A DNA stretch of 64,000 bases, taken from the NCBI RefSeq assembly GCF_963676685.1, contig NC_092353.1, positions 26,619,690-26,683,689 on the forward strand, read 5' to 3'. The notes under the pieces were generated by a model. The model had not been told where the DNA came from. It made no database searches and worked only from the letters and a program-made list of their open reading frames with translations. How positions within the stretch are numbered: the stretch's first letter is position 1; each line of letters starts with the position of its first letter. Of the stretch, positions 1,701 through 51,112 are shown piece by piece. Made by a program: the position numbers and the translations under genes. This stretch comes from Mytilus edulis. Its lineage: Eukaryota.

Positions 1701-2900
1701 TTTCATCAAAAATTGAATAATTGGGGCTCTCTGATATGCTGAATCTAACTGTGTATGTAGATTCTTAATTTTTGGTCCCATTTTCAAATTGGTCTACATT
1801 AAGGTCCAAAGGGTCCAAAATTAAACTTAGTTTGATTTTAACAAAAAATAAATCCTTGGGGTTCTTTGATATGCTGAATCTAAAAATGTACTTAGATTTT
1901 TGTCGCTGCAACTTTTGTTGCAGAAAGCTCGACATAGGGATAGTGATCCGGCGGCGGTGTTAGCTCACTTCTTACAAGCTATATATTTTTAGAAGGTGGA
2001 AGACCTGGATTGTTCATATTTTGTATATAGATTTTTGTAATGTTAAATTCTCTCTTACTGTAAGTAATAGGATAACTATATTTCGTATGTGCGTACCTTG
2101 CAAGGTCCTCATGCCCGTCAGACAGTTTTCACTTGACCTCGACCTCATTTCATGGATCAGTGAACAAGGTTAAGTTTTGGTGGTCAAGTCCATATCTCAG
2201 ATACTATAAGCAATAGGTCTAGTATATTCGGTGTATGGAAGGACTGTAAGGTGTACATGTCCAACTGGCAGGTGTCATCTGACCTTGACCTCATTTTCAT
2301 GGTTTAGTGATTATAGTTAAGTTTTTGTGTTTAGGTCTGTTTTTCTCATACTTTATGCAATAGGTTTACTATATTTGTTGTATGGAATGATTGTAAGGTG
2401 TACATGTCTAGCGGGCAGATGTTATCTGACCTTGACCTCATTTTCATGGTTCAGTGGTTATAGTTAAGTTTTTGTGTTTTGGTCTGTTTTTCTCATACTT
2501 TATGCAATAGGTTTACTATATTTGTTGTATGGAATGATTGTAAGGTGTACATTTCTAGCGGGCAGATGTCATCTGACCTTGACCTCATTTTCATGGTTCA
2601 GTGGTCAAAGTTCAGTTTTTGAGTTTTGGTCTTTTTATCTAATACTATATGTCATAGGTCAACTATATTTGGTGTATGGAAATATTTTATGATCTATTTG
2701 TCAGTCGTACAGGTTTTATTTGACCTTGACCTGGTTTTCACGGTTCATTGCTCAGTGTTAAGTTTTTGTGTTTTGGTCTATTTTCTTAAACTATAAGCAA
2801 TAGGCTCAACTATATTTGTCATGTTTGTTGTATGGAAGCATTGTTAGCTGTACATGTCTGCCTGGCATCAGGGCTTCCAAAAAAAATTTGAGCCAGCCGG
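1690..2900. repeat. Segmental duplication partner A, containing ~125-bp tandem 'tgaccttgacctcattttcatggttcagtg' repeats
   Basis: 1770-1950 is near-identical to 4186-4380. The internal tandem units at 2090-2900 are mirrored at 4640-5460. Confidence 0.75.
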
Positions 2901-4069: not shown

Positions 4070-5460
4070 TTTCAAGTTGGTCCAAATCGGGGTCCAAAAT
4101 TAAACTTTGTTTGATTTCATCAAAAATTGATTAATTGGGGTTTTTTGATATGCCAAATCTAACTGTGTATGTAGATTCTTAATTTTTGGTCCCGTTTTCA
4201 AATTGGTCTACATTAAAGTCCAAAGGGTCCAAAATTAAACTAAGTTTGATTTTAACAAAAATTGAATTCTTGGGCTTTTTTGATATGCTGAATCTAAACA
4301 TGTACTTAGATTTTTTGTCGAGCCTGCAACTTTTGTTGCAGAAAGCTCGACATAGGGATAGTGATCCGGCGGCGGTGGCGGCGGCGGCTACGGCGGCGGC
4401 GGCGGTGTTAGCTAACTTCTTAAAAGCTTTATATTTTAGAAGGTGGAAGACCTGGATGCTTCATACTTTGTATATAGATGCCTCATGTTACGAAGTTTCC
4501 GTCAGTCACATGTCCAATGTCCTTGACCTCATTTTTATATGGTTCAGTGACCACTTGAAAAAAAAGTTCAAATTTTTTGTAATGTTGAATTCTCTCTTAT
4601 TATAAGTAATAGGATAACTATATTTGATATGTGCGTACCTTGCAAGGTCCTCATGTCTGTCAGATAGTTTTCACTTGACCTCGACCTCATTTCATGGATC
4701 AGTGAACAAGGTTAAGTTTTGGTGGTCAAGTCCATATCTCAGATACTATAAGCAATAGGGCTAGTATATTCAGTGTATGGAAGGACTGTAAGGTGTACAT
4801 GTCCAACTGGCAGGTGTCATCTGACCTTGACCTCATTTTTAGGGTTCGGTGGTTATAGTTAAATTTTTGGTGTTTTGGTCTGTTTTTCTCATACTATATG
4901 CAATAGGTCTACTATATTTGTTGTATGGAACGATTGTAAGGTGTACATGTCTAGCAGGCAGATGTCATGTGACCTTGACCTCATTTTCATGGTTCAGTGG
5001 TCAAAGTTAAATTTTTGTGTTTTGGTCTGTTTTTCTCATACTATATGCAATAGGTCTACTATATTTGTTGTATGGAACGATTGTAAGGTGTACATGTCTA
5101 ACGGGCAGATGTCATGTGACCTTGACCTCATTTTCATGGTTCAGTGGTCAAAGTTCAGTTTTTGAGTTTTGGTCTTTTTATCTAATACTATATGCCATAG
5201 GTCAACTATATTTGGTGTATGGAAATATTTTATGATCTTTATGTCAGTCGCACAGGTTTTATTTAACCGTGACCTCATTTTCACGGTTCATTGCACAGTG
5301 TTAAGTTTTTGTGTTTTGGTCTCTTTATCTTAAACTATAAGTAATAGGTCAACTATATATGTTGTATAAAAGCATTGTTAGCTGTACATGTCTGCCTGGC
5401 ATGGTTCATCTGACCTTGACCTCATTTTCAAGGTTCATTGGTCTATGTTTAGTTATCTTG
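4070..5460. repeat. Segmental duplication partner B, with a (GGC)n expansion at 4370-4410
   Basis: Collinear with 1690-2900. This copy carries an extra 'ggcggcggtggcggcggcggctacggcggcggcggcggtg' tract. Confidence 0.75.
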
Positions 5461-11495: not shown

Positions 11496-12600
11496 TTAAC
11501 GAAGGGCTGCATCCCCATCACTAGGAGGAGGAAAAACAACCTGTTGAGCAGCAACCAAAGGCCCTAAAGAATAGAGGTTGTCACAATGAAGAGGCATGGA
11601 CCGTAAATAATGGTTATAAAAGGCACTATCAGACCTCCAAAAACCAGCTGACATGATTTCCGACATAGAGGAGGAATTAAAAATGTTCCAAGAAGAGGCT
11701 AAGGCTCTTACTTCATGTGCTTTAACTTGATGTTTAACTAAAACTTCAGAAGAAGCAGATTTATAGGCCAAAATGACAGTATTGCAAATCCAAGTAGAAA
11801 TGGTTTTGGCAGAAATGTCAGAAATTCCTTTTTTAATAGGAATAAACAACCTAGAAGAACCAGCAGATCTTAATTTCGCTGAAGAAGCTAGGTAAACAAG
11901 CAAGGCTCTCACTGGACACAAAACCTGATTATCCGATGTGGGAGGTAAAGCAGGAATAGTAATAATACCAGAACCTTTATCAGGTAACTGGTTCTTTGCT
12001 AAAAAAGATGGATCAGTGAGAAGAGTAACTGAAGACTTATCAGATGCAAAGCGGAGACAAGACTCAGAAATTGACAGAGCATGAATCTCACTCCTTCTGC
12101 GACCAGTAGCCAAAGCTATCAGAAAACAACATTTATAAGATAAAAATTTGAAGGAGGCTGAATGTAAAGGTTCAAAAGGTGAAAACTGAAGAACCTTCAA
12201 AACTAAACCTAAGTCCCAAGAAGGAACCAAACGCCTTTGACGAGGTCTATTAAGGCAAAAGTTTTTTATCAATAATGACAAAAACTCATTATCCCCAAAA
12301 TCAGAGCCTCCTGAAAGTGATATTGTTCTGGCTATGGCAGATCTATATCCCTTTATAGTAGAAGGAGAATAACCTTTCTCCTCAAAAAGGTAAAGGAAGA
12401 AATCCGCTAACTGTTGTACAGTGACAGAGAGTGGATTAATCTGCTTCGACAGACACCAAGTACAGAAGATAGACCATTTGGAGTCATAAACTGCTCCTGT
12501 AGATTGTCTGACTGATCCTGAGATACGCTTGGTTGCTCCCTCAGAAAAGCCTCCCTTTCTGAGGGAATCCCTGACAACAACCAAGCGTGCAGATGGAGAT
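11496..12600 (-). CDS. DIRS ORF3, tyrosine recombinase domain; this is the C-terminal part of the 971-aa ORF 11496..14411
   Basis: YR boxes: LIALATGRRRSEIHAL (Arg box), HQVKAHEVRALASSW (HxxR) and GFWRSDSAFYNHYLR (catalytic Tyr). Upstream of about 12600 the same frame is S/G-rich low-complexity read-through antisense to pol, so the true start is uncertain. Confidence 0.7.
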
Positions 12601-14563
12601 TCTCCAGACCTTGATGCAGTTTTCTTCCTTTGAATTGAGACAGTAGATCCTCTCTTAGAGGCAAACAAAGGGGCTTCGCACAACACAGAAGTAGTAGTTC
12701 TGGGAACCAAGACTGTCTTGACCAAGCCGGAGCAATAAGAATGGTCTTGCAAAGATCCCTCTGAATCTTGTGCAAGATCTTTGGAAGAAGACGAAAAGGA
12801 GGGAACATGTAACTGAACATTCCCTTCCAAGATAGGGTCATAGCATCTACTGCCCAAGCTTTCTCGTCTGGAATGGGAGAAACGTAAGTCTCCAATTTGT
12901 GATTCAGACTGGTGGCAAAAAGATCTATATGAGGACGATCCCAACGAAGAATGATCTCCTGAAACACTGATGGATGAATTTCCCATTCTGTGTTCACTGG
13001 AACACGGGAACGGGAGAGAGCATCCGCCAGAAGATTTTGACTGCCTGGAACATGTCTCACTGACAGAAAAATATTGAGACTGTGACACAGAAGAAGAATT
13101 TCCTTGCTCAGATGATACAGAGAAAAGGAATGGGTCCCTCCTTGATTCTGAAGATAAGCCACTACTGTGGAGTTGTCCGTGGCAACCAGTAGTGACTGAC
13201 CCTGAATCACAGCCTGAAACTGACGGAGAGAAAGAAACACAGCTCTCATCTCTAGAAGATTGATGTGTTCCTCCAACTGAGCACCTGACCAAAGGCCTGA
13301 TGCTGTCCTGCCCTCCAGATAAGCTCCCCAACCCATCAGACTCGCATCTGTGAACAAAGTTAGGCTGGGGTCTGGAGGATCCAACAAAACTCCCTTCCGA
13401 AGATGTTTTTCCTGAAGCCACCATTGAAGATGAGGTAACAACCGAGGAAGGATGGGAACAGGTGCCTCCCACAACTGAGAAATTGGATGCCAAAACTCCA
13501 TCAGATACCACTGGATTGGACGAATGTGTAGACGTCCTAGTGGAATGACGTCCATGATCGAAATCAAGAAACCCACCAGCTGAAGCAATTGACGAGCTGG
13601 GACAGATGAAAACTGAGTCAGAGCATTGACTAACTGACATACCTTGACTACCTTCTCTTCTGGAGGAAGCACTAGACCCAAATCTGTCCGAAAATGTTCT
13701 CCCAGGAAATTGAAACTCTGACTGGGAATTATCTCTGATTTTTCCCATGAAATCAAAAAACCCAGTCTCAGGAGTAAAAGGATAGACAAATTGGTGTGTT
13801 CCTCCAAAAGAGAACGGCAATGATTCTTGATGAGAGAATCGTCTAGGTAGGAATGAATGAGAACTGCCCGAGTATGAAGATACGACACCACCGTCTGAAA
13901 AATCCTGGTAAAAACTAGGGGTGCAATAGCCAGGCCAAAAGGCATAGCCTTGAAACTGTAAACCTTGTCTGCCCACACCAGTCTCAGGAAATGACGAAAC
14001 TTGTGAGAAATAGGGATGTGAAAATAGGCGTCCATCAAATCTAGAGAGGTTGTCCAAGTTCCTAAATGAATTGTCGACCTGATAGACCTGTTGGTCTCCA
14101 TTTTGAAATGTGGGACCACCAGATACTGATTGAGAACAGAAAGATCTAGAACCGGTCTCATTTTCCCGTTCTTCTTGGGTACCAAGAACAGCCGGGAATA
14201 AAACCCTAGATGAAAAGGATTTACCTCCTCCAATACACCCTTCTGAATCAGAATGTTCACTTCGTTTTGTAACAACTGATTCTTTTGAGAATCCTTTGTC
14301 ACTGACAGATTGATTGGAACAGGAGAAAGAGGAGGCTGTTCCAGAAACTGAAGTTCCAATCCCCTCCGTAAAATCGAAAGTACCCACTTGTCTGATGTTA
14401 TCAGAGCCCATTGATCTAGAAAGTGGGACAGCCTGCCCCCCACTGGAAGATGAGGAAGAGGAGAAGTATAATTTTCCTCTTCCAGTGGGGAACGATTCAA
14501 CGGAGGGGACAACACATCACTTACCCTGCTTCTTTCCCTTAACCACTTTAGCTTTCTTCCCAC
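12407..14563 (-). CDS. DIRS ORF2, pol: reverse transcriptase, RNase H and a conserved DIRS/Ngaro C-terminal extension
   Basis: RT motifs: LVPKKNGKMRPVLDLSVLN, LDLMDAYFHIPI, FKAMPFGLAIAP and the YxDD-like HSYLDDSLI. RNase H motifs: FTDASLMGWGAY, TDNSTVVAYLQNQGGT and HVPGSQNLLADALSR. Then ...IDLFATSLNHKL...YMFPPFRLL...ILIAPAWSRQSWF. Confidence 0.85.
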   Translation of the reverse strand: MGRKLKWLRERSRVSDVLSPPLNRSPLEEENYTSPLPHLPVGGRLSHFLDQWALITSDKWVLSILRRGLELQFLEQPPLSPVPINLSVTKDSQKNQLLQNEVNILIQKGVLEEVNPFHLGFYSRLFLVPKKNGKMRPVLDLSVLNQYLVVPHFKMETNRSIRSTIHLGTWTTSLDLMDAYFHIPISHKFRHFLRLVWADKVYSFKAMPFGLAIAPLVFTRIFQTVVSYLHTRAVLIHSYLDDSLIKNHCRSLLEEHTNLSILLLLRLGFLISWEKSEIIPSQSFNFLGEHFRTDLGLVLPPEEKVVKVCQLVNALTQFSSVPARQLLQLVGFLISIMDVIPLGRLHIRPIQWYLMEFWHPISQLWEAPVPILPRLLPHLQWWLQEKHLRKGVLLDPPDPSLTLFTDASLMGWGAYLEGRTASGLWSGAQLEEHINLLEMRAVFLSLRQFQAVIQGQSLLVATDNSTVVAYLQNQGGTHSFSLYHLSKEILLLCHSLNIFLSVRHVPGSQNLLADALSRSRVPVNTEWEIHPSVFQEIILRWDRPHIDLFATSLNHKLETYVSPIPDEKAWAVDAMTLSWKGMFSYMFPPFRLLPKILHKIQRDLCKTILIAPAWSRQSWFPELLLLCCAKPLCLPLREDLLSQFKGRKLHQGLENLHLHAWLLSGIPSEREAFLREQPSVSQDQSDNLQEQFMTPNGLSSVLGVCRSRLIHSLSLYNS

Positions 14564-16277
14564 TTGAATAGTTGGGACGAGAAAAAGCTGGCCTCTTCGT
14601 AGACTGTGAAGAAGAAGAAGAGGTAGAAGCCTTGGGTTGATGAGAAGACGAAGAAGAAGAAGGATTATTCATCTGAGTAGTTTTGACAAATCTTTTCCCA
14701 TCAGTGACCTTCACATCCACCTTGACTACAGGAGGGGCCTTATTCACCTCCTCCTGTAACTGCTCTAAGGAAACAGAGAACAACTTGTCCTTAGACAAAG
14801 GAGAACTGACAAGTCTCTGCTGAAGAGCTTCAGAGACAGTTGATTTTACAAGAATCTCCTGTCTCTTAGCAAGAGTAAAGTTGGCCACAGTACCAAGAAG
14901 AAGGAATTGAGACATTCCAAGACTCTTGTCTACCTGAAGCAGCATAGACCTCAAATCTGAAAATTCCTCCCCTTTGTCCTTTAACAGAGACCCAGCTGCT
15001 GACAAAAAGTGCTCAGCTGTCTCAAGAACAAAAGTCAAACACCTCAGATTATTCTCTGACTTGACATAAGAAGCTTGAGAAAGTCTGAGGCCATCCAAAG
15101 GTTTCGAACCAAGCAAACTAGAAAAAGCCCGGTCACAAGCAGGAGCCGACATACCCAAGGAAGATCCATGGATCTCAAAGTCCTTAGATCTACATCTCCC
15201 TGGATAAGAGGCAGGTCCGAAACCAGAGAACTTACTACCACCAGTTTTGCTAGTGTTAGCAAGATTCTCAGCCAGAGAAGAGTTTACAAAAGACAAAGCA
15301 GTTGTAAAGTGCCCAGACTCTGGAAAAGAATAATACCCCTTAGACTCTGGCTTGACTATACCTGAGCAAGCCATGAAATCTGAAGGAGTAGAAGAAACCC
15401 TAGGTGGAGACGACATGGGCATATCCGACATATTCCTACGAATAGAATAGACCAGACTTCTAAGGCATTCTGGGTTGCCTGAAGCAGGATCCTTAGGAGC
15501 GAAAGCATCTCCCTCTGTGCTTACTACACTATCAACATCAGAAATACCATCTTGGTCCTCCAAAAAGTTACCTTCCTGACTTCTAGGGGCCAAAGAAACT
15601 GAGTCGTCTTCCAACAACTGTCTAGGAGGTCTGGGAGGATCCTGTGCAGGATCCTGAGACAGACCCCTAGACTCCATAAGATCAAGCCTGTTACCAAATT
15701 CCAAAAACTTAGCATTAACAGTAGCTTGTATCTTGTGAATGGAGGTGGTAAGACTCCTCATCTCATCCTTAAAGGAGGATGACTCTGAAGAGGATCTACC
15801 ACCAAACCCCTGACCAGACCAAACTGATTGAGCCGAATAAGGATCAAAAGGCTGGGGATAAGGCGGCAAGTTGGGCATTCCCATAGGCATGGGAGGGTAT
15901 GCAAAATTCATGGGCCACCTAGTCCGAGAAAAGGGGTCACTCCTGATGCCAGCTGGTAGTGTCTCCTGCCTGCTTGTCGTGCAAGCCACAGGAGACGTTG
16001 GTATCTCTGCAGGCCTAGTTACGGTATGTGATACCCTGCTAGGCCTAGATAACCTCAACTGACTAGCACCAGGAGTGAAAGGCAAAGTCCTGACAGGAAC
16101 AGGTTCCGAGTCCTGTTCCAGACCGACACCAGAAACACCTGGAATAAACTCCAAACTTCTATCCCAAAATTCATCTGAATGGGTGGCCGAACGCCAAGGG
16201 GACAACAAATTACCATTGGATGTGTGAATTTGACTGTCACTTACCTCTTGGGTACCTGAAGCTGGAATTTTATCCAT
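14517..16277 (-). CDS. DIRS ORF1, gag-like, 586 aa
   Basis: First long ORF after the 5' ITR. It has a basic, S-rich C-terminus (...KKAKVVKGKKQGK) and no zinc knuckle. It overlaps the pol ORF by 47 nt in another frame, as in DIRS elements. Confidence 0.6.
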   Translation of the reverse strand: MDKIPASGTQEVSDSQIHTSNGNLLSPWRSATHSDEFWDRSLEFIPGVSGVGLEQDSEPVPVRTLPFTPGASQLRLSRPSRVSHTVTRPAEIPTSPVACTTSRQETLPAGIRSDPFSRTRWPMNFAYPPMPMGMPNLPPYPQPFDPYSAQSVWSGQGFGGRSSSESSSFKDEMRSLTTSIHKIQATVNAKFLEFGNRLDLMESRGLSQDPAQDPPRPPRQLLEDDSVSLAPRSQEGNFLEDQDGISDVDSVVSTEGDAFAPKDPASGNPECLRSLVYSIRRNMSDMPMSSPPRVSSTPSDFMACSGIVKPESKGYYSFPESGHFTTALSFVNSSLAENLANTSKTGGSKFSGFGPASYPGRCRSKDFEIHGSSLGMSAPACDRAFSSLLGSKPLDGLRLSQASYVKSENNLRCLTFVLETAEHFLSAAGSLLKDKGEEFSDLRSMLLQVDKSLGMSQFLLLGTVANFTLAKRQEILVKSTVSEALQQRLVSSPLSKDKLFSVSLEQLQEEVNKAPPVVKVDVKVTDGKRFVKTTQMNNPSSSSSSHQPKASTSSSSSQSTKRPAFSRPNYSSGKKAKVVKGKKQGK

Positions 16278-17589: not shown

Positions 17590-17609
17590 TTGGCGTCCGT
17601 CGTCGTCGA

Positions 17610-17646
<37 letters not shown>

Positions 17647-17650
17647 TGTC
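17590..17650. repeat. (GTC)n microsatellite
   Basis: 'cgtcgtcgtcgacgtcgtcgtcgtcgtcgtcgtcgtcgtcgtcgtctgtcgtcg'. Shorter GTC runs lie near 1030-1050 and 19435-19445. Confidence 0.9.
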
Positions 17651-20580
17651 GTCGTTAACAATTTTTCAAACATCTTCTCCTCTGAAACTACTGAATGGAT
17701 TTGAATGAAACTTAACATGATTGTTCCTTAGTATATCCTGCACAAAATGTGCGCTTCGATTTTTGATCCGTCAAAAAACATGGCCGCCGTTACTTAAAAT
17801 AGAACATAGGGGTCAAATGCAGTTTTTGGCTTATATCTCAAAAACGAAAGCATTTAGAGCAAATCTGACATGGGGTAAAAATGTTCATTAGGTCAAGATC
17901 TATCAGCCCTGAAATTTTCAGATGAATCAAACAAACCATTGTTGGGTTGCTGCCACTTAATTGGTAATTTTAAGGAAATTTTGCAGTTTTTGGTCATTAT
18001 CTTGAATATTATTATAGATAAAGATAAACTGTAAACAGCAAAAAAGATCAGCAAAGTAAGATCTACAAATAAGTTAATATGACCAAAATTGTCAATTGAC
18101 CCCTTAAGGGGTTATTGTCCTTTAATGACAATTTTTCACAATTTGTTCATCATATTTGCTAACTTTAAAAAATCTTCTCCTCTGAAACTACTGAATGGAT
18201 TTGGTTAAAACTTAGCATGATTGTTCCTTAGATTATCCTGCACAAAGTGTGTGCTTTGATTTTTGATCCGTCAAAAAACATGGCCGCCGTTACTTAAAAT
18301 AGAACATAGGGGTCAAATGCAGTTTTTGGCTTATATCTCAAAAACGAAAGCATTTAGAGCAAATCTGACATGGGGGTAAAAATGTTCATTAGGTCAACAT
18401 CTATCAGCCCTGAAATTTTCAGATGAATCAAACAACCCATTGTTGGGTTGCTGCCACTTAATTGGTAATTTTAAGGAAATTTTGCAGTTTTTGGTCATTA
18501 TCTTGAATATTATTATAGATAAAGATAAACTGTAAACAGCAAAAATGATCAGCAAAGTAAGATCTACAAATAAGTTAATTTGACCAAAATTGTCAATTGA
18601 CCCCTTAAGGGGTTATTGTCCTTTAATGACAATTTTTCACAATTTGTTCATCATATTTGCTAACTTTAAAAAATCTTCTCCTCTGAAACTACTGAATGGA
18701 TTTGGTTAAAACTTAGCATGGTTGTTCCTTAGATTATCCTGCACAAAGTGTGTGCTTTGATTTTTGATCCGTCAAAAAACATGGCCGCCGTTACTTAAAA
18801 TAGAACATAGGGGTCAAATGCAGTTTTTGGCTTATATCTCAAAAACGAAAGCATAAAGAGCAAATCTGACATGGAGTAAAAATGTTCATTAGGTCAATAT
18901 CTATCAGCCCTGAAATTTTCAGATGAATCAAACATCCAAACAGCAAATATGATCAGCAAAGTAAGATCTACAAATAAGTCAATTTGACCAAAATTGTCAA
19001 TTGACCTCTTTAGGAGTTATTGCCCTTTAAAGACTTTTTTCACAATTTGTTCACCGTGTTGACTTACTTTAAAAGATCTTCTCTTATGAAACTGCTGTAT
19101 CAATTTCAGCCAAACTTAGGCTAAATGAGTTTCAGAGTTTCAGAGTATCTAGTATAAATTTTATATTTCATTTCCTTGTATGTCAAGAAACATAGCTCCT
19201 ATGGCTAAAATAGAACATAGGAGAAAATGATTTTTTTTTGCTTTTGAAGAAAATAGGACGATTCAAAGAACATTTAAATAAATTGAAAAGCCAAAATAAT
19301 CATTGATGAGAGATTAAACCAAAAAAATTCAGGTGAGCGATTCAGGCTCTTGAGAGCCTCTTGTTTTAGCTCACCTGGCCCATAGCCTATAGGGCCAAGT
19401 GAGCTTTTCTCATTCATGTCATTACTTGTTGTCCGTCGTCGTCTTTAACTTTTACAAAAATTTTCTCCTCTGAAACTACTGGGCCAAATTTAACCAAACT
19501 AAGCCACAATCATCACTAGGGTATCTAGTTTACAGAATGTGTCCGGTGACCCTGCCAACCAACCAAGATGGCCGCGTTGGCTAAAAATAGAACAGAGGGG
19601 TAAAATGTAGATTTTGGCTTATATCTCTGAAACCAAAGCATTTAGAGCAAATCTGAGAGGCAGTAAAATTGTTTATATCTGCTCTGAAATTTTCAGATGA
19701 ATAGGACAACCCGCTGTTTGGTTGCTGCCCCAGATTTGGTAATTTTAAGAAAATTTTGCTGTTTTTATACGTTCGCAAAGATTGAGAATTTTTTGGTCGT
19801 ATATTGGTATCAGGTTGACGTTTATCAGGTCAAGATCTATCGGCCCTGAAATTTTCAGATGAATCAGACAATGGGTTGTTGGGTTGCTGCCCCTGAATTG
19901 GTAATTTTAAGGAATTTCTTTGTTTTCGGTTATTATCTAAAAAAAATTATTATAGATAGAGATAAACTATAGGCAGCAATTATGTTCAGCAAAGTAAGAT
20001 CTACAAATAAGTCAACATGATCAAAATGATCAGTTGATCCCTTAAGGAGTTATTGCCCTTAACAGTCATTTTTTACCAATTTTTCATAAATTTTTGTTAT
20101 CTTTTACAAAAATCTTCTCCTCTGAAACTACTGGACCAAATTTAACAAAACTTAGCCAAAATCATAATTAGGGTATCTAGTTTAAAAACTGTGTGCGGTG
20201 ACACGGCCAACCAACAAAGATGGCAGCCATGGCTAAAAATAGAACATAAGGGGTAAAATGTAGATTTTGGCTTATAACTCTGAAACCAAAGCATTTAAAG
20301 CAAATCTTACAAGGGGTGAACTTGTTTATCTAGTAAAAATATCTATCTGCCCGGAAATTTTCAGATGAATTGGACAACTGGTTATTGGGTTGCTGCCTCC
20401 CAATTGGTAATTTTAAAAGAAATTTAGTCGTTTTTGGTTATTATCTTGAATACTATTATAGATAGAGATAAATTGTAAACAGCAATAATGTTCAGCAAAT
20501 TAAGATCTACAAATAAGTCACCATGACCAAAATGGTCAGTTGACCCCTTAAGGAGTTATTGCCCTTTATAGTCATTTTTT
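17650..20580. repeat. Tandem array of ~6 copies of a ~480-520-bp unit (satellite/SINE-like) inside MVP intron 1
   Basis: Recurrent 'aatcttctcctctgaaactactg...atggccgccgttacttaaaatagaacataggggtcaaatgcagtttttggcttatatctc...gttgggttgctgcc...agatctacaaataagt...' at about 17660, 18165, 18670, 19060, 19450 and 20100. Confidence 0.8.
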
Positions 20581-22884: not shown

Positions 22885-23018
22885 ACAACTAATATTACAA
22901 GGATAGAAATAGGTCCACAGACCATTGTATTGAAGACAAATGAAAACTTTGTGGCTGGTCCATTACCTATGATAGTTGTTGCACCAGGATGTTATTGTGT
23001 AGTCCATAATCCTGTCAG
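22885..23018 (+). CDS. MVP: MVP exon 2
   Basis: Acceptor 'ttttcag|', donor 'gtcag|gtatgt'. TTNITRIEIGPQTIVLKTNENFVAGPLPMIVVAPGCYCVVHNPV resembles human [38 protein letters not shown]. Confidence 0.8.
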
Positions 23019-23905
23019 GTATGTATTGTGTAGTCAATAATCCTGTCAGGTATGTATTGTGTAGTCCATAACCCTGTCAGGTATGTATTGTGTAGTCCAT
23101 AACCCTGTCATGTATGTATTGTGTAGTCCATAACCCTGTCAGGTATGTATTGTGTAGTCCATTATCCTGTCAGGTATATATTGTGTAGTCCATAACCCTG
23201 TCAGGTATATATTGTGTAGTCCATAACCCTGTCAGGTATATATTGTGTAGTCCATAATCCTGTCAGGTATGTATTGTGTAGTCCATTACCCTGTCATGTA
23301 TGTATTGTGTAGTCCATAACCCTGTCAGGTATGTATTGTGTAGTCCATTATCCTGTCAGGTATATATTGTGTAGTCCATAACCCTGTCAGGTATATATTG
23401 TGTAGTCCATAACCCTGTCAGGTATATATTGTGTAGTCCATAATCCTGTCAGGTATGTATTGTGTAGTCCATTACCCTGTCAGGTATGTATTGTGTAGTC
23501 CATAACCCTGTCAGGTATGTATTGTGTAGTCCATAACCCTGTCAGGTATGTTTTGTGTAGCACTGTGTTGTGTAGTCCATAACCCTGTCAGGTATGTTTT
23601 GTGTAGCACTGTGTTGTGTAGTCCATAACCCTGTCAGGTATGTATTGTGTAGTCCATTATCCTGTCAGGTATGTATTGTGTAGTCCATAACCCTGTCAGG
23701 TATATATTGTGTAGTCCATAATCCTGTTAGGTATGTATTGTGTAGTCCATTACCCTGTCAGGTATGTATTGTGTAGTCCATAACCCTGACAGGTATGTAT
23801 TGTGTAGTCCATAACCCTGTCAGGTATGTATTGTGTAGCACTGTGTTGTGTAGTCCATAACCCTGTCAGGTATGTATTGTGAAGTCCATAACCCTGTCAG
23901 GTATA
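23000..23905 (+). repeat. 31-bp minisatellite, ~29 copies, derived from the last 27 nt of MVP exon 2 plus its GT donor
   Basis: The unit 'gtatgtattgtgtagtccataaccctgtcag' starts inside exon 2 and every unit carries 'cctgtcag|gtatgt'. There are variant units with 'gtttt' or 'cactgtgttg' inserts. Confidence 0.9.
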
Positions 23906-24221
23906 TATTGTTTAGTCTTAAACATTCTTGTTCCAGATTGTGCTAAGACAAGTGAAATTTATGTGGCTAATGTATTGACGAGATTGTCTACATGATTTAT
24001 TTCACTAGTTATATATATATCTGTTTTAAGCTCCCACTGCATCAATTGGCGATTTGATGGTCGCAAATTAAGTTTACTGGCAAAGTGTTAGCAACTGGGG
24101 ATAATAACTCTAAATCTCTCTCACCAATTTTCATAAAATGTTGGTGAATTGTTTATATCTATTGACATAACGTTGCTGTTATGCAAAAGTCTTGTATCTC
24201 AATTTTTTGCGGAAATCTTTT

Positions 24222-36158: not shown

Positions 36159-36179
36159 GTAAACAGTTTTCTTTAAAAC

Positions 36180-36900
36180 TATACCATAAAGATTCACACA
36201 GTTTCTATTTATACCAAAAAGGTTCACGCAGTTTCTATTTTACACCAAACAGGTTCACATTCCTTCTCTTTTGCACCATAAAGATTCATACCGTTTCTCT
36301 CTCACACCATAAAGGTTCACACTCTTTCTCTTTTACACCATGAAGGTTCAAACACTTTCTCTTTTACACCATAAAGGTTCACACACTTTCCCTTTTACAC
36401 CATAAAGGTTCACACACTTTCCCTTTTGCACCATAAAGATTCACACAGTTTCTATTTTACACCATAAGGGTTCACACAGTTTCTGTTTTACACCTTGAAG
36501 GTTCTCTCAGATTCTGTTTTACACCATAAAGGTTCACACAGTTTCTCTTTTCCACCATAAAGGTTCACACAGTTTCCCTTTTGCACAATAAAGATTCACA
36601 CAGTTTCTATTTTACACCATAAGGGTTCACACAGTTTCTGTTTTACACCTTGAAGGTTCACACAGATTCTGTTTTACACCATAAAGGTTCACACAGTTTC
36701 TGTTTTACACCATAAAGGTACACATCTTGTCTTTTTTACACCATTAAGGTTCACATTCTTTCTTTTTTACACCGTTATGGTTCACATCCTTTCTCTTTTA
36801 CACATTGAAGGGTCACATTATTTTTCTTTCACACCATAAAGGTTCACACCTTTTCTCTTTTACACTATAAAAGTTTATACCCTTTACAACATCTTTTAAT
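36180..36900. repeat. ~30-bp minisatellite x ~24 ('accataaaggttcacacagtttctcttttac') in MVP intron 17
   Basis: Direct tandem periodicity. Confidence 0.9.
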
Positions 36901-39172: not shown

Positions 39173-39480
39173 GTAAGTCCTGTTATATACATCTTCATAA
39201 ATATGTGAAGGAACATTCATTAGACAAAGGCAGTAAAAACAACTTTAGAGTTCTTATTCTTCTTTAAAAAAAATAAGTTTAACATGTGAACTAATGCAAT
39301 GATACCACATCTTCTTTATTATTAGATATAATAGTTTTATGCATAAATCCTGAATTCAATTTTATAAAGGTGTGTGGTTATGCTGCTATGTATGCTAATG
39401 TTTGAATTTTGACATTTTATAACTGATCTTTTCACATACGTTAAAGCATATTGGTTTATATGTGTATATATTTTTCATAG

Positions 39481-39707
39481 ATCAATAGAAGCCTCAGCAT
39501 CCCACGAAGCTAGCAGAAATGAACAAATAGCCAGAGGTCAACTTGAACGACAGAAATTGCTTAATGAAATGGATTCTGAGAAAGAAAAGACAAAGTTATT
39601 AGAATTACAAGCTATCACTGCCGCCGTGGAATCTACTGGTCAAGCTAAAGCTGAGTCACAAGCACAGGCTGAGAGAATGCTAATAGAGTGTGAAAGCGAA
39701 ATAGAAT
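39481..39707 (+). CDS. MVP: MVP exon 22, coiled-coil
   Basis: ...RGQLERQKLLNEMDSEKEKTKLLELQAITAAVESTGQAKAESQAQAERMLIECESEIE resembles human [54 protein letters not shown]. The donor 'gaat|gtaagt' at 39708 is then tandemly reiterated downstream. Confidence 0.85.
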
Positions 39708-40270
39708 GTAAGTCAAGCTAAAGCTGAGTCACAAACACAGGCTGAGAGAACGCTAATAGAGTGTGAAAGTGAAATAGAATTAATGTAAGTCAAACACAAG
39801 CAGAGGCTGAGAGAATGCTGATAGAATGTGAAAATGAAATAGAATGTAAGTCAAACACAAGCCGAGTCACAAACACAGGCGTAGAGAATTCTAATAGAGT
39901 GTGAAAGTGAAATAGAATGTAAGTCAAACACAAGCACAGGCTGAGAGAATGCTTATATAGTGAAAATGAAATAGAATGTAAGTCAAACACAAGCCGAGTC
40001 ACAAACACAGGCTGAGAGAATGCTAATAGAGTGTGAAAGTGAAATAGAGTGTAAGTCAAACACAAGCAGAGGCTGAGAGAATGCTGATAGAATGTGAAAG
40101 TGAAATAGAATGTAAGTCAAACATAAGGCAAGTCACAAGCACAGGCTGAGAGAATGCTTATATAGTGAAAATGAAATAGAATGTAAGTCAAACACAAGCC
40201 GAGTCACAAGCACAGGCTGAGAGAATGCTAATAGAGTGTGAAAGTGAAATAGAATGTAAGTCAAACACAA
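39640..40270 (+). repeat. Tandem repeat of 61/73-bp units derived from the 3' end of MVP exon 22 plus its splice donor, ~8 copies
   Basis: Each unit reiterates '...caggctgagagaatgctaatagagtgtgaaagtgaaatagaatgtaagtcaa...'. The first unit is the authentic exon end and donor. Confidence 0.9.
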
Positions 40271-40980
40271 GCTTAATATAAAAGCCGAGAAAAAAAACCC
40301 CTTAAATTTAATTGGATTGTATAATTCTTTTATCTGTTTAATGTTATTTGGAGTTTCATAAGTTCAATGTAATAAAAAAGCAAATTTTATTCAATGGTTG
40401 AACACATTTGTATAAAAAAATAAAATGAATATTATATGATCAATTGATTGTTGGTGTTTAACATGACTTTTAGCTCTCTTAGCTATATTTTGGCAGACAG
40501 TTTTTATTTGGTGAGGAATCTGTAGATAACCACAACGTTTGACACGATAACAGGCAATTCTAATCAATTTAGATTGGAGTTAGACAAACTGCTACATACA
40601 GAGTTTAAATTCATAACCTCAGTGTTGACAAGCTAGTAATGTAAATAAACAATTAAAATTTCTTGACCCCTGAGGCCAAAAATATATTTGAATTGATCCT
40701 TCCAAACTATCAGCAGTTCTGTGAACCAACCCTACAAACCTTACAGCAGTCATGTTAAACAGAACACAATCTTATGATAAATACAGTTGATTGTTCTTTG
40801 CCTAAAAATATCACTTTGTCCAACCAGGATATGGCGACCCATAGTTTAGTTGGTGACGATAAAAAGACATTTGCTTGTTTTTATCAAAATACAATATACA
40901 TATCATTAAAATTGTCTGAAATGAACTCAAGTTTTTAACGTTATTCCATATAATACTAATGCTTAAAATCTGTATTACAG

Positions 40981-41045
40981 CTGCCAAGTTAAAGGCTGAA
41001 GCAGAGGAAATTGAACACATGGCCAAACTTGAAACTCAGGGCTTG
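40981..41045 (+). CDS. MVP: MVP exon 23
   Basis: (S)AKLKAEAEEIEHMAKLETQGL resembles human LQAKLKAQALAIETEAELQRV. It is in phase with exon 22, with 1 nt + 2 nt forming TCT. Confidence 0.75.
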
Positions 41046-42339
41046 GTAAGTTTATAGATTATTTTTGAAAAAAGATCAAACTATTAAGAATTTATTAAAT
41101 GTTAAGTATTTTTTCACTTTGTTCATAATCCTAAGAACCCGTAAACTTTTAATATTTATGATATTATTACAAACATTTATGGGCATTATGTTTTCTGGTC
41201 TGTGCGTCAGTCCGTTCTTCCGTCCAGTCATCTGTCCTGCTTCAAGAAAGTTTATGGTCGAGGTAGTTTTTGTTGAAGTTGAAGACAAATCTACTTGAAT
41301 CTTTGTATACATGGTCCCTGTGATATGATCTTTCTAATTTTAATGCCAAATTACAGTTTTGACCCCAATTTCACAGTCCATTAAACATAGTAAATGATAG
41401 TGCGAGTGGTAGCATCTGTGTACTATGGTCACATTTTTGTTCATAATTCTTTTAAACATACTTTAATATTGATTGCTCATGACATGCATATCATTGGCAA
41501 TCATACCACATCTTCTTTTTTATATATCATACACTGGTAGTGCAGCAATTTATCAAAATTGTCTTGAATTTATTGGGACCTGAAGATGTTTCCATGCTTA
41601 TCTATAATAAGAAGTTACATATACAATTCATTTTTATGCCCCACCTACGATAGTAGAGGGGCATTATGTTTTCTGGTCTGTTCGTCCGTCCGTTCGTTCA
41701 GGTTAAAGTTTTTGGTCAAGGTAGTTTTTGATGGAGTTGAAGTCCAATCAACTTCAGACTTAGTACACATGTTCCCTATGATATGATCTTTCTAATTTAA
41801 TTGCCAAATTAGACTTTTGACCCCAATTTCACGGTCCGCTGAACATAGAAAATAATAGTGCAAGTTTCAGGTTAAAGTTTTTGGTCAAGGTAGTTTTTGA
41901 TGAAGTTGAAGTCCAATCAACTTCAAACTTAGTACACATGTTTCCTATGATATGATCTTTCTAATTTAATTGCCAAATTAGACTTTTGACCCCAATTTCA
42001 CGGTCCACTGAACATAGAAAATAATAGTGCAAGTTTCAGGTTAAATTTTTGGTCAAGGTAGTTTTTGATGAAGTTGAAGTCCAATCAACTTCAAACTTAG
42101 TACACATGTTCCCTATGATATGATCTTTCTAATTTAATTGCCAAATTAGAGTTTTGACCCCAATTTCACGGTCTACTGAACATAGAAAATGATAATGCGA
42201 ATGGGGCATCCGTGTACTATGGACACATTCTTGTTATTTTTGTGTCGTATAATGGTATGATGTTGTCGTAGTCGTCCAAAGACGCATTTAGTTTCCAGAC
42301 AATAACTTTAGTTTTAGTGAATGGATCTCTATAATTTGT

Positions 42340-42820: not shown

Positions 42821-42901
42821 TTGAGAGCACAGGAGCTTTCATATCAAAAAGAACTTAACAGAATGGAATTGGATTTAGAAAAAGGAAGAGCAGACATTGA
42901 G
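42821..42901 (+). CDS. MVP: MVP exon 24
   Basis: LRAQELSYQKELNRMELDLEKGRADIE resembles human [27 protein letters not shown]. Confidence 0.75.
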
Positions 42902-43273: not shown

Positions 43274-43354
43274 GTGAAGAAATTCAAGTCTATGGTTGAG
43301 ACATTAGGAATAAAAACAATAGAAACTATGTCAATAGCAGGACCCAAGGCTCAA
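43274..43354 (+). CDS. MVP: MVP exon 25
   Basis: VKKFKSMVETLGIKTIETMSIAGPKAQ resembles human [27 protein letters not shown]. Confidence 0.85.
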
Positions 43355-43499
43355 GTGAGTAACTCATTTATAGTTAGGGTAGACATTATTATACAATGAC
43401 AATCACCTCTTCTCTAAATCAGTTGGATGTGTCCTAATTGATACTTTTATCTGGAAGAACATGATCTATTTATAAGTTGTAATTGGTTTTTAATAATTA

Positions 43500-43900
43500 G
43501 GGCCCCGCCTTTAGGCGGGTCGCCCTATAGTGATCAGTCGTACCGTCCGTCCATCCGTCCGTCCGTCCGAATCTAGAGAACCATTATGATTTCATACTTC
43601 ATACTTTACATGTTTATTAACCACCACCAGAGGGCGTGTCATGATGTATGTACAACTTCCTAGGCAAAGTTAAAGGTCAAAAACTTTGGTTTCAGTTGAC
43701 AACCCCATGTCCTATGGTAAAGATCGTGTCCGCTCTATATTTTGAGAACCGTTATCATTTCAAAGTTTATACTTGACATGTATATAAACCAACACCAAAG
43801 GGTGTGTCATAATTTATTTACAACTTCCTAGGTCAAAGGTCAAGGTCAAAAACTTTGATTTCAGTTGACAAACCCATGTCCTATGGTAAAGATACAATTT
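43500..43900 (+). repeat. Tandem duplication of a ~190-bp unit ('...gaaccattatgatttca...accaccagagggcgtgtcatgatgta...ggtcaaaaactttggtttcagttgacaaccccatgtcctatggtaaagat')
   Basis: Unit at about 43570-43735 repeated at about 43745-43890; preceded by 'ccgtccgtccatccgtccgtccgtccg'. Confidence 0.7.
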
Positions 43901-49594: not shown

Positions 49595-51112
49595 GTCAAA
49601 GCGACAACCACCCGACCATAGAGCAAACAACAACCGAAGGCAACCAATGGGTCTTCAATGTAGCGAGAATTCCCGCACCCGTAGGTGTCCTTCAGCTGGC
49701 CCCTAAAATATGCATAATAGTACAGTGATAATGGACGTCATACTAAACTCCGAATTATACACAAGAAACTAAAATTAAAAATCATACAAGACTAACAAAG
49801 GCCAGAGGCTCCTGACTTGGGACAGGCGCAAAATTGCGGCGGGGTTAAACATGTTTATGAGATCTCAACCCTCCCCCTATACCTCTAGCCAATGTAGAAA
49901 AGTAAAAGAATAACAATACGCACATTAAAATTCAGTTCAAGAGAAGTCCGAGTCCGATGTCAAAAGATGTAACAAAAGAAAATAAATAAAATGACAATAA
50001 TACATAAATAACAACAGACTACTAGCAGTTAACTGACATGCCAGCTCCAGACCTCAATTAAACTGATTGAAAGATTATGTCTTCATCATATGAATATCAG
50101 GTACAATCCCTCCCGTTAGGGGTTTAGTATCATACTATCATAAAATATATGAGAAGAACATAACCCGTGTCATGCCAACAACTGTTTTTTAAGAAATAAA
50201 TGTGTTTAGTTCCGATGCAAAGACCCTATCAGTGAATCAATGTTAAAGCCAAAATATGCAATCTTTAATGACCTGACAACAGTATCGTAACTATATCCCC
50301 TTTTAATAAGTCTATTTAAAGGTTTTGTTAGTTTCTGAGGAGAATACTGACATTTTTGTGCTTTATAAAGCATATTTCCATAAAATTTTGGATGTGAAAT
50401 ACCTGAACGTATAAGATGTCTGCATGTTCAGTTATATTTACGAATTATTTCCTTATACCGGTGATAAAATTTAGTAAATGTTTTGACCAGTTTGTGATAT
50501 CGAAAACCCTGGTGTAATAATTTTTCAGTAATACATAAATTTCTCTCGCTAAAATCTAATACATTGTTACATACACGAGCGAATCGTACAAGTTGAGATA
50601 TATAAACACCATAAGATGGTGACAAGGGAACGTCACCATCTAAAAATGGATAATTAACAATAGGAAATGAAAAATCATCTCTTTTATCATAAATTTTTGT
50701 ATTAAGCTTCCCGTTTATGATATAGATATCAAGATCGAGGAAAGGGCAGTGGTCATTGTTATCATTAGCTTTATTTAAAGTAAGTTCTACAGGATAAATT
50801 TCTTTAGTATACATACTGAAGTCGTCATTATTTAGAGCCAATATATATTGGTTTACCCCGCCGCATTTAAGTTGCGCCTGTCCCATGTCAGGAGACTCTT
50901 GCCTTTGTTAATCTTGTATGATTTTTAATTTAAGTTCATTTATATCTTTCGGAGTTTAGTATGACGTTCATTATTACTGAACAAGAACACATTTTTGTTT
51001 AGGGGCCAACTGTAGCACACCTCTGAGTGCGGGATTTTCTCGCTGTATCGAAGACCCATTAGTGGCCTTCGGCTGTTTTCTGCTCATTGGTCGGGTTGTT
51101 GTCTCTTTGACA
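49595..51112. mobile_element. Element of ~1.5 kb with ~250-bp terminal inverted repeats enclosing a 152-aa ORF (candidate non-autonomous or foldback-type DNA element, or two inverted repeat copies)
   Basis: 49595-49845 is about 85% identical to the reverse complement of 50858-51112. The shared stretch runs from 'gtcaaag.gacaac.acccgaccaa...ccgaaggc.ac.aatgggtcttc' to 'ctcctgac.tgggacaggcgcaa...tgcggcgggg'. The same ~140-bp head also occurs alone at 47690-47830. Confidence 0.55.
50428..50886 (-). CDS. 152-aa ORF of unknown family inside the long-TIR element (...FLDLDIYIINGKLNTKIYDKRDDFSFPIVNYPFLDGDVPLSPSYGVYISQLVRFARVCNNVLDFSERN...)
   Basis: It is the longest stop-free stretch in the 45-52 kb interval. 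It has non-repetitive amino-acid composition and lies exactly between the inverted repeats. I cannot assign a domain from memory. Confidence 0.35.
   Translation of the reverse strand: MGQAQLKCGGVNQYILALNNDDFSMYTKEIYPVELTLNKANDNNDHCPFLDLDIYIINGKLNTKIYDKRDDFSFPIVNYPFLDGDVPLSPSYGVYISQLVRFARVCNNVLDFSERNLCITEKLLHQGFRYHKLVKTFTKFYHRYKEIIRKYN

What the first reader, a model, noticed from the sequence alone, without database searches (positions are those of the whole stretch)
39640..40270. Second exon/donor-derived tandem repeat in the same gene: MVP exon 22 3' end and splice donor reiterated about 8 times
Units of 61 or 73 bp each repeat the coiled-coil coding tail '...caggctgagagaatgctaatagagtgtgaaagtgaaatagaat' followed by 'gtaagtcaa'. 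This again creates a ladder of cryptic 5' splice sites downstream of the authentic donor at 39708. Two independent junction-derived minisatellites in one gene suggests a locus- or lineage-specific mechanism. Candidates are replication slippage seeded by the AE-rich coiled-coil repeats, or recombination-mediated capture. Reading through any copy in frame hits a stop, so the copies are intronic.
Basis: seen in the sequence. Interest (0 to 1): 0.6.

Follow-up and report, generated by a model that had tools for sequence, protein, structure and literature searches.

The report
Splice-donor minisatellite in vault protein intron
The end of one exon of the major vault protein gene, together with its splice signal, has been copied eight times head to tail into the following intron; this is real, but it belongs to a kind of repeat already described in human genes and in amphioxus, where the extra splice signals are mostly ignored.

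Summary
A tandem array lies at 39639-40272, with units of 59-77 nt. Its first unit is the last 68 nt of an MVP cap-helix exon (39481-39707) plus the first bases of the donor. The donor hexamer GTAAGT occurs nine times, at 39708 and at eight downstream positions.

Only the first donor gives an open frame. With it, the spliced product aligns without gaps to rat MVP residues 634-818. Every other donor keeps a TAA at 39717-39719.

Six other lineages have the same exon boundary and no array. A seventh (L003/L004) has its own array at the same junction, with different unit borders, so the arrays are young and arose separately.

The best explanation is a boundary-spanning minisatellite. It would be formed by microhomology-mediated duplication and grown by unequal exchange, and it would be removed with the intron. 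This kind is known from human F7 IVS7, IFI6, CBS, LMNB2 and PDGF, and from the amphioxus 'mirages'.

So this is a new member of a known kind. The mildly interesting points are three donor-adjacent arrays in one gene and the recurrence at the same junction. No RNA data were available, so whether the eight pseudo-donors are silent is inferred, not shown.

The parts
39481..39707 (+). MVP coding exon in the cap-helix region, equivalent to rat/human residues about 667-742. The acceptor AG is at 39479-39480. The exon ends in phase 1: its last base T joins CT of the next exon to give Ser.
   Evidence: Translation. tblastn colinearity along the gene. Pfam Vault, Vault_3 and MVP_shoulder hits on neighbouring exons. 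Gapless alignment of the spliced model to PDB 4hl8 residues 634-818.
39708..39713 (+). Authentic 5' splice site, AAT|GTAAGT.
   Evidence: It is the only donor that gives an open frame into the next exon. The boundary is at the same codon position in 8 orthologous lineages. The spliced product is gapless against homologues whose ORFs run uninterrupted across this point, P0028 and P0024.
39639..40272 (+). Tandem array of 9 units (59-77 nt) plus a 13-nt partial unit. Unit 1 is the exon tail plus GTAA. Units 2-9 are intronic copies.
   Evidence: TRF; unit decomposition; unit alignment and identity matrix.
39717..39719 (+). TAA stop in the exon's reading frame, four codons beyond the authentic donor. 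It is retained if any downstream donor is used.
39785..39790 (+). Pseudo-donor 1 (GTAAGT), in unit 2. This is the youngest copy: 96% identical to the exon tail, with a 4-nt TTAA insertion.
39846..39851 (+). Pseudo-donor 2 (GTAAGT), in the 61-nt unit 3.
39919..39924 (+). Pseudo-donor 3 (GTAAGT), in the 73-nt unit 4.
39978..39983 (+). Pseudo-donor 4 (GTAAGT), in the 59-nt unit 5.
40051..40056 (+). Pseudo-donor 5 (AGT|GTAAGT), in the 73-nt unit 6.
40112..40117 (+). Pseudo-donor 6 (GTAAGT), in the 61-nt unit 7. Unit 7 is 98% identical to unit 3.
40183..40188 (+). Pseudo-donor 7 (GTAAGT), in the 71-nt unit 8. Its aligned part is identical to unit 5.
40256..40261 (+). Pseudo-donor 8 (GTAAGT), in unit 9. 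It is followed by GTCAAACACAAGC and then unique intron sequence, so this is probably the position of the original intron start.
40273..40980 (+). Non-repetitive remainder of the intron. Without the array the intron would be about 725 nt, similar to the orthologous introns (about 210-2100 nt).
40981..41045 (+). Next MVP exon (ct + AKLKAEAEEIEHMAKLETQGL). The acceptor AG is at 40979-40980 and the donor GTAAGT at 41046.

Best explanation
This is a boundary-spanning minisatellite, the same kind as the human F7 IVS7 VNTR and the amphioxus 'mirages'. It sits at the 5' end of a conserved intron of the major vault protein gene.

Shown: the array is a head-to-tail reiteration of the last roughly 55-68 nt of the exon plus the first 4-17 nt of the intron. 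The direction of copying was exon to intron. The array is absent from most orthologues.

Inferred history:
1. A roughly 73-nt segment spanning the donor was duplicated between short homologies. These are AAGC, found in exon ...AAAGC|TGAG and in intron ...CACAAGC|TTAAT, and later GTCAA, found in exon G|GTCAAGC and in intron GTAA|GTCAAAC.
2. A 12-nt slippage between the CACAAGC repeats produced the short 59-61-nt unit type.
3. Unequal exchange of one- and two-unit blocks then grew the array to nine units.

The event was tolerated because everything after the first donor is removed with the intron.

Inferred function: none. The most upstream donor (39708) is the one used, and the eight pseudo-donors are silent or used rarely. 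Any transcript spliced at a pseudo-donor carries a premature stop. It would be degraded, or would encode an MVP cut off inside the cap-helix.
For: Existence and statistics of the array.

Only donor 39708 keeps the frame open. With it, the exons 39481-39707, 40981-41045, 42821-42901 and 43274-43355 give a product that aligns without a gap to rat MVP 634-818. The same product aligns without a gap to homologues whose ORFs run uninterrupted across the junction.

The exon boundary is at the same codon in L001, L002, L003, L005-L010, and none of them except L003/L004 has an array.

The intronic copies are 85-96% identical to their own exon tail. Orthologous exons are only about 80% identical. The array therefore postdates the species splits.

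All eight copies carry AGT or AAT where the exon now has AGC (39697-39699); five carry AGT. The orthologues also have AGT. The copies therefore preserve an older state of the exon.

The units fall into subfamilies: u3~u7 98%, u5~u8 100%, u6~u9 97%, u1~u2 96%. Together with the 132-nt higher-order period, this fits block-wise unequal exchange.

The predicted RNA structure is not unusual: z = +0.8, with no inverted repeats.

Precedent: in human F7 only the most upstream of 5-9 identical donors is used, although all are functional. LMNB2 and PDGF behave alike (PMC1557585). Amphioxus mirages do not disturb splicing (PMC3087553, PMC3902484).
Against: There are no transcript data for this organism, so which donor is used is inferred only from the reading frame and from homology.

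According to PMC1557585, the first two pseudo-sites of human IFI6 and two pseudo-sites of CBS are used, so complete silence cannot be assumed here.

All eight pseudo-donors keep a perfect GTAAGT, while 40% of the other unit columns vary. This could hint at constraint, but the chance probability is about 0.05 and the units are not independent.

Unit 2 shares CAAACACAG with units 4 and 6 rather than with the exon. The simple two-step history needs a parallel change or a conversion event to explain that.

Copy number rests on one assembly.
Confidence: 0.85

Rival explanations
1. The array has a function in splicing control. The eight pseudo-donors would act as a U1 snRNP landing pad or decoy. They could tune use of the authentic donor, or divert part of the transcripts into nonsense-mediated decay as regulated unproductive splicing. 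They could also suppress premature cleavage inside the intron.
For: All eight copies keep an intact GTAAGT. This hexamer is as strong as the typical authentic donors of this gene. The purine-rich exon tail next to each copy is retained as well. Two or three arrays of the same design lie in the one gene.
Against: The array is absent from six of the seven other lineages examined. In L003/L004 the copied donors have decayed to GTTAGT and GTTTGT. Invariance of the hexamer is only marginal, at p about 0.05. In the 31-nt array at 22985-23911 the donors vary as much as the rest of the unit, with GTATAT, CAT|GTA and TTAG|GTA variants. There are no expression data.
Confidence: 0.07
2. The array is an assembly artefact, either a spurious expansion or a mis-joined repeat.
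For: There is only one assembly of this species. No reads or second haplotype were available.
Against: The units differ by substitutions and indels, at 86-100% pairwise identity, and form ordered subfamilies. Artificial duplication does not produce that. A comparable array at the same junction appears in two independently assembled runs of another species, L003 and L004. The copy number could still be somewhat wrong.
Confidence: 0.03
3. The units are coding: a longer exon, or alternative in-frame extensions of the coiled coil as in human IFI6.
For: Each unit would encode QAQAERMLIECESEIE-like heptad sequence in one frame.
Against: Unit lengths of 59-77 nt are not multiples of three. TAA at 39717-39719 stops the frame four codons past the first donor. 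The frame shifts from unit to unit. Homologues and solved MVP structures leave no room for an insertion here.
Confidence: 0.01
4. A junction-targeted duplication process operates in this lineage. DNA at transcribed splice donors would be especially prone to tandem duplication, for example through R-loops or transcription-replication conflict. The array would then be one product of a general mechanism rather than a chance slippage event.
For: The three largest short-period arrays of the gene all start at or within 5 nt of a donor. My rough chance estimate is about 0.001-0.05, depending on definition, and it is post hoc. An independent array exists at the same junction in another species. Amphioxus authors also regard mirages as a general phenomenon whose mechanism is unclear (PMC3087553).
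Against: Five other arrays in the same gene are not at junctions. The recurrence at this junction is equally explained by the exon's own 18-nt internal repeats. Six lineages have no array.
Confidence: 0.12

Closest known systems
Human F7 intron 7 37-bp VNTR (Borensztajn et al. 2006, PMC1557585). The same paper lists like cases in IFI6 (6-16), CBS IVS13, LMNB2 and PDGF.
   Same: It is a minisatellite whose first monomer spans the exon-intron boundary, so the authentic donor is followed by 4-25 pseudo-donors in the intron. Only one acceptor is available. In F7, LMNB2 and PDGF only the most upstream donor is used.
   Different: The F7 unit takes 4 nt of exon and 33 nt of intron. Here the unit is almost all exon: 55-68 nt of exon and 4-17 nt of intron. 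Here the units are diverged (86-100%) and of several lengths, whereas the F7 pseudo-sites are strictly identical in sequence. The donor here is GTAAGT, against the weak GUGGGU of F7. Length polymorphism and splice-site use are documented for F7 and unknown here.
Amphioxus 'mirages': tandem duplications of exon-intron boundaries in Adh3, troponin C, globins BflGb6/9 and PGBD5 (PMC3087553, PMC3902484).
   Same: These are minisatellite-like reiterations of an exon end plus its splice signal, with units of 10-160 bp. More than one unit size is reported for a single gene (Adh3). Subfamilies of units indicate unequal exchange. Splicing is reported as normal.
   Different: They are described in cephalochordates. 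This window has 32% G+C and carries repeats that I associate with molluscs. That association comes from my own knowledge and was not tested, so the window probably comes from another phylum. Mirages affect both 5' and 3' boundaries, whereas only donor-side arrays were seen here.
Intron gain by tandem duplication of an exonic AGGT proto-splice site (Rogers model; reviewed in PMC3443670; Drosophila cases in PMC2891723).
   Same: A tandem duplication copies a splice signal, and the spliceosome removes the extra copy, so the coding sequence is unharmed.
   Different: No new intron is created here. The intron position is shared by eight lineages. The duplication only lengthened an existing intron.

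Membership tests
Boundary-spanning minisatellite (F7 IVS7 type / 'mirage') | Head-to-tail tandem array with a minisatellite-sized unit (about 10-160 bp). | tested here: met
   TRF gives period 73 (also 61 and 132), 9.2 copies, at 39639-40272. Units are 59-77 nt.
Boundary-spanning minisatellite (F7 IVS7 type / 'mirage') | The first monomer contains the exon-intron junction, so the authentic splice-site sequence is reiterated inside the intron. | tested here: met
   Unit 1 is 39640-39711, which includes exon bases up to 39707 and the donor GT at 39708. Eight further GTAAGT hexamers lie downstream.
Boundary-spanning minisatellite (F7 IVS7 type / 'mirage') | The repeated segment derives from the gene's own junction, not from an element inserted from elsewhere. 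| tested here: met
   The unit is homologous to the exon tail, which is conserved in orthologues that lack any array. The unit has no other copy in the window. The copies keep the ancestral AGT.
Boundary-spanning minisatellite (F7 IVS7 type / 'mirage') | Normal splicing uses the authentic site, and the pseudo-sites are silent or minor. | not testable with these tools
   No RNA data. Indirect support only: the first donor alone gives an open frame and a gapless match to MVP homologues and to PDB 4hl8.
Boundary-spanning minisatellite (F7 IVS7 type / 'mirage') | Copy-number polymorphism or instability (VNTR behaviour). | not testable with these tools
   Only one haplotype is available. The window's ORF is not on record in other assemblies, and pattern scans of metagenome contigs found nothing. 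The unit subfamilies indicate past unequal exchange.
[quoted passage not shown] | The intron is new, meaning absent at this position in related species. | tested here: not met
   An intron lies at the same codon position in L001, L002, L003, L005-L010.
In-frame alternative-donor ladder (IFI6 type) | The unit length is a multiple of three, and the reading frame stays open through the units. | tested here: not met
   Units are 59, 61, 71, 73 and 77 nt. TAA at 39717-39719 is retained with every downstream donor.
Dispersed satellite or transposon-borne array | Copies of the unit occur at other genomic places. | tested here: inconclusive
   There is none elsewhere in the 64-kb window. The rest of the genome could not be searched.

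The most novel reading that the evidence does not exclude
Splice-donor junctions in this AT-rich invertebrate lineage may be preferred seeds for minisatellite formation. That would make 'mirages' a phenomenon outside cephalochordates.

The case rests on two points. One gene carries three donor-adjacent arrays, with about 29, 22 and 9 units. The same MVP junction was hit independently in a second species.

If true, it points to a duplication mechanism coupled to transcription or splicing rather than to random slippage. It would also offer a natural test bed, with ladders of 9-29 strong donors, for how the first 5' splice site is chosen.
Probability: 0.15. Interest if true: 0.55.

Novelty: new member of a known kind. 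Interest (0 to 1): 0.3.

Why it matters
As a single locus it matters little. It is a neutral-looking intronic minisatellite of a described type.

It has some value as a natural experiment. Nine equally strong GTAAGT donors, each with the same 50-60 nt of upstream exon context, compete for one acceptor in an essential-looking reading frame. The neighbouring array offers about 29 more donors. RNA data from this species would show whether the 'most upstream site wins' rule found for human F7 also holds in a distant invertebrate.

For annotation, such ladders are traps for gene predictors and for short-read assembly.

The independent recurrence at the same junction in another species shows that the internal periodicity of coiled-coil exons can repeatedly seed such arrays.

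Tried and rejected
1. Looked for the same species in other assemblies to check the array and its copy number. The window's exon ORF is not on record. Two exact-pattern scans of metagenome contigs found nothing.

2. Tried to fetch orthologues of the other junction array, at the early exon ending at 23016, with its 45-aa peptide. The search returned no candidates, so that array could not be compared across species.

3. Tested whether the pseudo-donors are hidden in RNA structure. The fold energy is no better than shuffles (z = +0.8), and there are no inverted repeats. Rejected.

4. Tested for selective conservation of the donor hexamer in the copies. It is invariant, but p is about 0.05 and the units are not independent. 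Not persuasive.

5. Considered a coding extension or an alternative in-frame donor ladder. Rejected on unit lengths and the TAA.

6. Considered a newly gained intron under the Rogers model. Rejected because the intron position is conserved.

7. Considered common ancestry of the window array and the L003 array. Rejected for three reasons. The unit borders differ: exon -68/-55 to intron +4/+17 here, against exon -44 to intron +42 in L003. The intron sequences do not align. The copies resemble their own exon more than the orthologous exons resemble each other.

8. L011, a JGI contig, looks chimeric and was not used.

9. The organism could not be identified with the available tools. Gene identity was therefore confirmed independently with Pfam and with PDB sequences.

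Full report
**What is there**

Reading 39300-40600 and running Tandem Repeats Finder confirm a tandem array at 39639-40272. TRF reports it with period 73 (9.2 copies, score 731), period 132 (87% matches, score 864) and period 61.

The hexamer GTAAGT occurs nine times, at 39708, 39785, 39846, 39919, 39978, 40051, 40112, 40183 and 40256. The spacings are 77, 61, 73, 59, 73, 61, 71 and 73 nt.

A 52-nt unit consensus matches six times in the window with up to three mismatches, all within the array. None was expected by chance. The only correction is that unit sizes of 59, 71 and 77 nt also occur.

**The gene**

A tblastn of human MVP against the window gives colinear hits on the + strand from 22882 to 44917, over more than twenty exons.

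Independent checks agree:
- Pfam finds Vault, Vault_3 and MVP_shoulder on translated exons.
- The upstream ORF of orthologous locus L002 carries MVP_shoulder.
- Two database relatives are named major vault protein by their source.

The exon in question is 39481-39707. Its acceptor AG is at 39479-39480 and it ends in phase 1. The next exons are 40981-41045, 42821-42901 and 43274-43355.

**Which donor is real**

With donor 39708, the split codon is T+CT (Ser) and the frame stays open. With any of the eight other donors, the TAA at 39717-39719 is retained, and unit lengths that are not multiples of three shift the frame.

The spliced model made with the first donor aligns without a single gap to rat MVP residues 634-818 (PDB 4hl8). 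It also aligns without gaps to two homologues whose reading frames run uninterrupted across the corresponding point, P0028 and P0024.

The exon ends at the same codon in every orthologous locus fetched. This is strong indirect evidence that 39708 is the authentic donor and that the repeats are intronic. No transcript data could be consulted.

**Comparison with relatives**

A protein search with the exon peptide returned single-exon ORFs from other eukaryotic assemblies. Their DNA was fetched.

- Six lineages have the same junction and no repetition of the exon tail in the intron: L001/L002, L005, L006, L007, L008/L009 and L010.
- One lineage does have an array at this junction. It is represented by two separately assembled runs, L003 and L004.

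The L003/L004 array has units of 86 and 67 nt in about 3.5 copies. They run from 44 nt before the donor to 42 nt after it, and the copied donors have decayed to GTTAGT and GTTTGT.

Several facts indicate that the two arrays are young and arose independently:
- The borders differ from those in the window.
- The introns are otherwise unalignable.
- Orthologous exons are only about 80% identical.
- The intronic copies are 85-96% identical to their own exon tail.

**Internal anatomy and history**

The units fall into subfamilies:
- u1 (exon) and u2: 96%.
- u3 and u7, the 61-nt type: 98%.
- u5 and the aligned part of u8: 100%.
- u4, u6 and u9, the 73-nt type: 95-97%.

The alternation of short and long units gives the 132-nt higher-order period.

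The array ends with GTAAGTCAAACACAAGC followed by unique sequence. This is most simply the original start of the intron.

The long units join intron-derived ...CACAAGC to exon-derived (T/C)GAGTCAC at an AAGC microhomology. Unit 2 repeats the exon from GTCAAGC onward. It is explained by a later 73-nt duplication between GTCAA in the exon and GTCAA at intron position +5. The short units differ by a 12-nt deletion between two CACAAGC repeats.

The exon tail is itself internally periodic. CAAGCTAAAGCTGAG / CAAGCACAGGCTGAG encodes QAKAE / QAQAE, and ATAGAGTGT...ATAGAATGT follows, both at 18-nt spacing. This gives slippage substrates and may explain the recurrence in L003.

All eight copies have AGT or AAT where the exon now has AGC (39697-39699). 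The orthologues have AGT. So the copies record an earlier state of the exon, and copying ran from exon to intron.

These historical steps are inferences from the sequence pattern. One detail does not fit neatly: unit 2 shares CAAACACAG with units 4 and 6.

**Tests of a possible function**

- The RNA of the array is not unusually structured: z = +0.8 and no inverted repeats.
- The donor hexamer is invariant in all eight copies, while 29 of 73 unit columns vary. The chance probability is only about 0.05, and the units are not independent.
- GTAAGT is also the commonest donor among the gene's authentic sites, so the pseudo-sites are of full strength.
- The array is absent in most relatives, and the donors have decayed in L003. 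Both argue against a conserved role.

**What is known**

The literature search found the class already described.

Borensztajn et al. 2006 (PMC1557585) studied the human F7 gene. A 37-bp VNTR has its first monomer across the exon 7 / intron 7 boundary, so the authentic donor is followed by four to eight identical pseudo-donors. All are functional, yet only the most upstream is used.

The same paper lists four more human cases:
- IFI6: 25 pseudo-sites, of which the two most proximal are also used.
- CBS intron 13: 15-20 repeats, with two pseudo-sites used.
- LMNB2: 100-bp units, only the authentic donor used.
- PDGF: 81-bp units, a situation similar to LMNB2.

In amphioxus, tandem duplications of exon-intron boundaries were named 'mirages'. 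They occur in Adh3, troponin C, globin and PGBD5 genes and do not disturb splicing. They are length-unstable, and their origin is called unclear (PMC3087553, PMC3902484).

The related model of intron gain by tandem duplication of an AGGT site (PMC3443670, PMC2891723) does not apply, because the intron here is old.

**Verdict**

It is a new member of a known kind rather than a new phenomenon.

Three points remain mildly notable:
- The same gene holds a second array of the same design at 22985-23911. It has about 29 units of 31 nt, each carrying CAG|GTATGT or GTATAT.
- A third 31-nt array starts about 5 nt after the donor at 36159.
- The junction studied here was hit independently in another species.

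By my rough estimate, the probability that the three large short-period arrays of the gene all start at donors by chance is between about 0.001 and 0.05, depending on definitions. The estimate is post hoc and concerns one gene, so a junction-targeted mechanism stays a minority possibility.

The window has 32% G+C and is not amphioxus-like by my own knowledge of that genome. The organism could not be identified with the tools at hand.

Noticed in passing
window 22985-23911: A 31-nt tandem array of about 29 units (a few are 46 nt). Each unit repeats the tail of an early MVP exon (codons CYCVVHNPV) plus CAG|GTATGT or CAG|GTATAT. The first unit spans the donor at 23017, and 124-nt higher-order blocks are repeated.
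   Followed up: partly
window 36183-36875 (donor at 36159): A 31-nt array of about 22 units that starts about 5 nt after an MVP donor (ATTGAG|GTAAACAGTTT). The units carry AAG|GTTCACACAGTTT. The junction resembles the unit more than random window segments do (p about 0.005), so it may be a third, older boundary-derived array.
   Followed up: partly
L003 1193-1463 and L004 718-989: Another species, in two independently assembled runs, has its own array at the same MVP junction. The units are 86 and 67 nt and run from exon -44 to intron +42. The copied donors have decayed to GTTAGT and GTTTGT. The 67-nt type lacks 18-19 nt (about 19 by length), removed between two ATAGAATGT direct repeats.
   Followed up: yes
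window 39697-39699: The exon has AGC (Ser). All eight intronic copies have AGT or AAT, and orthologues L001-L003 have AGT. The intronic copies thus act as fossils of the exon's earlier synonymous state. Likewise, units 3 and 7 keep ATAGAATGTG as in most orthologues, where the exon has ATAGAGTGTG.
   Followed up: partly
window 11496-16277, minus strand: A retroelement with three long ORFs. The middle one has RVT_1 and RT_RNaseH domains. The last looks like a tyrosine-recombinase type (DIRS-like) by eye, but has no Pfam hit. G+C is 45%, against 32% in the surroundings.
   Followed up: partly
window 2134-2818 and 4676-5454; also 1061-1686, 41697-42198, 43576-43893: Two arrays of one 147-nt satellite family lie 1.9 kb apart. 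Three further arrays have 161-169-nt units, and two of them sit inside MVP introns away from splice sites. They are probably dispersed satellite or MITE-type repeats, different in nature from the junction arrays.
   Followed up: no
window 50428-50886, minus strand: A 152-aa ORF (…DKRDDFSFPIVNYPFLDGDVP…YGVYISQLVRFARVC…) with no Pfam hit. It resembles a repeat-associated ORF that I recall as abundant in mollusc genomes. That recollection comes from my own knowledge and was not tested.
   Followed up: no
L011 (JGI metagenome contig), 1-1100: The MVP exon breaks off after ...VESTGQ and is followed by inverted intron sequence of the L001 type. The contig is probably a chimeric or fold-back assembly. 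It was not used as evidence.
   Followed up: no
window 4367-4405 and 17598-17655: (CGG)13 and (CGT)19 triplet runs. The first lies inside a 139-aa ORF with an alanine-rich stretch. Whether either is exonic in a neighbouring gene was not examined.
   Followed up: no
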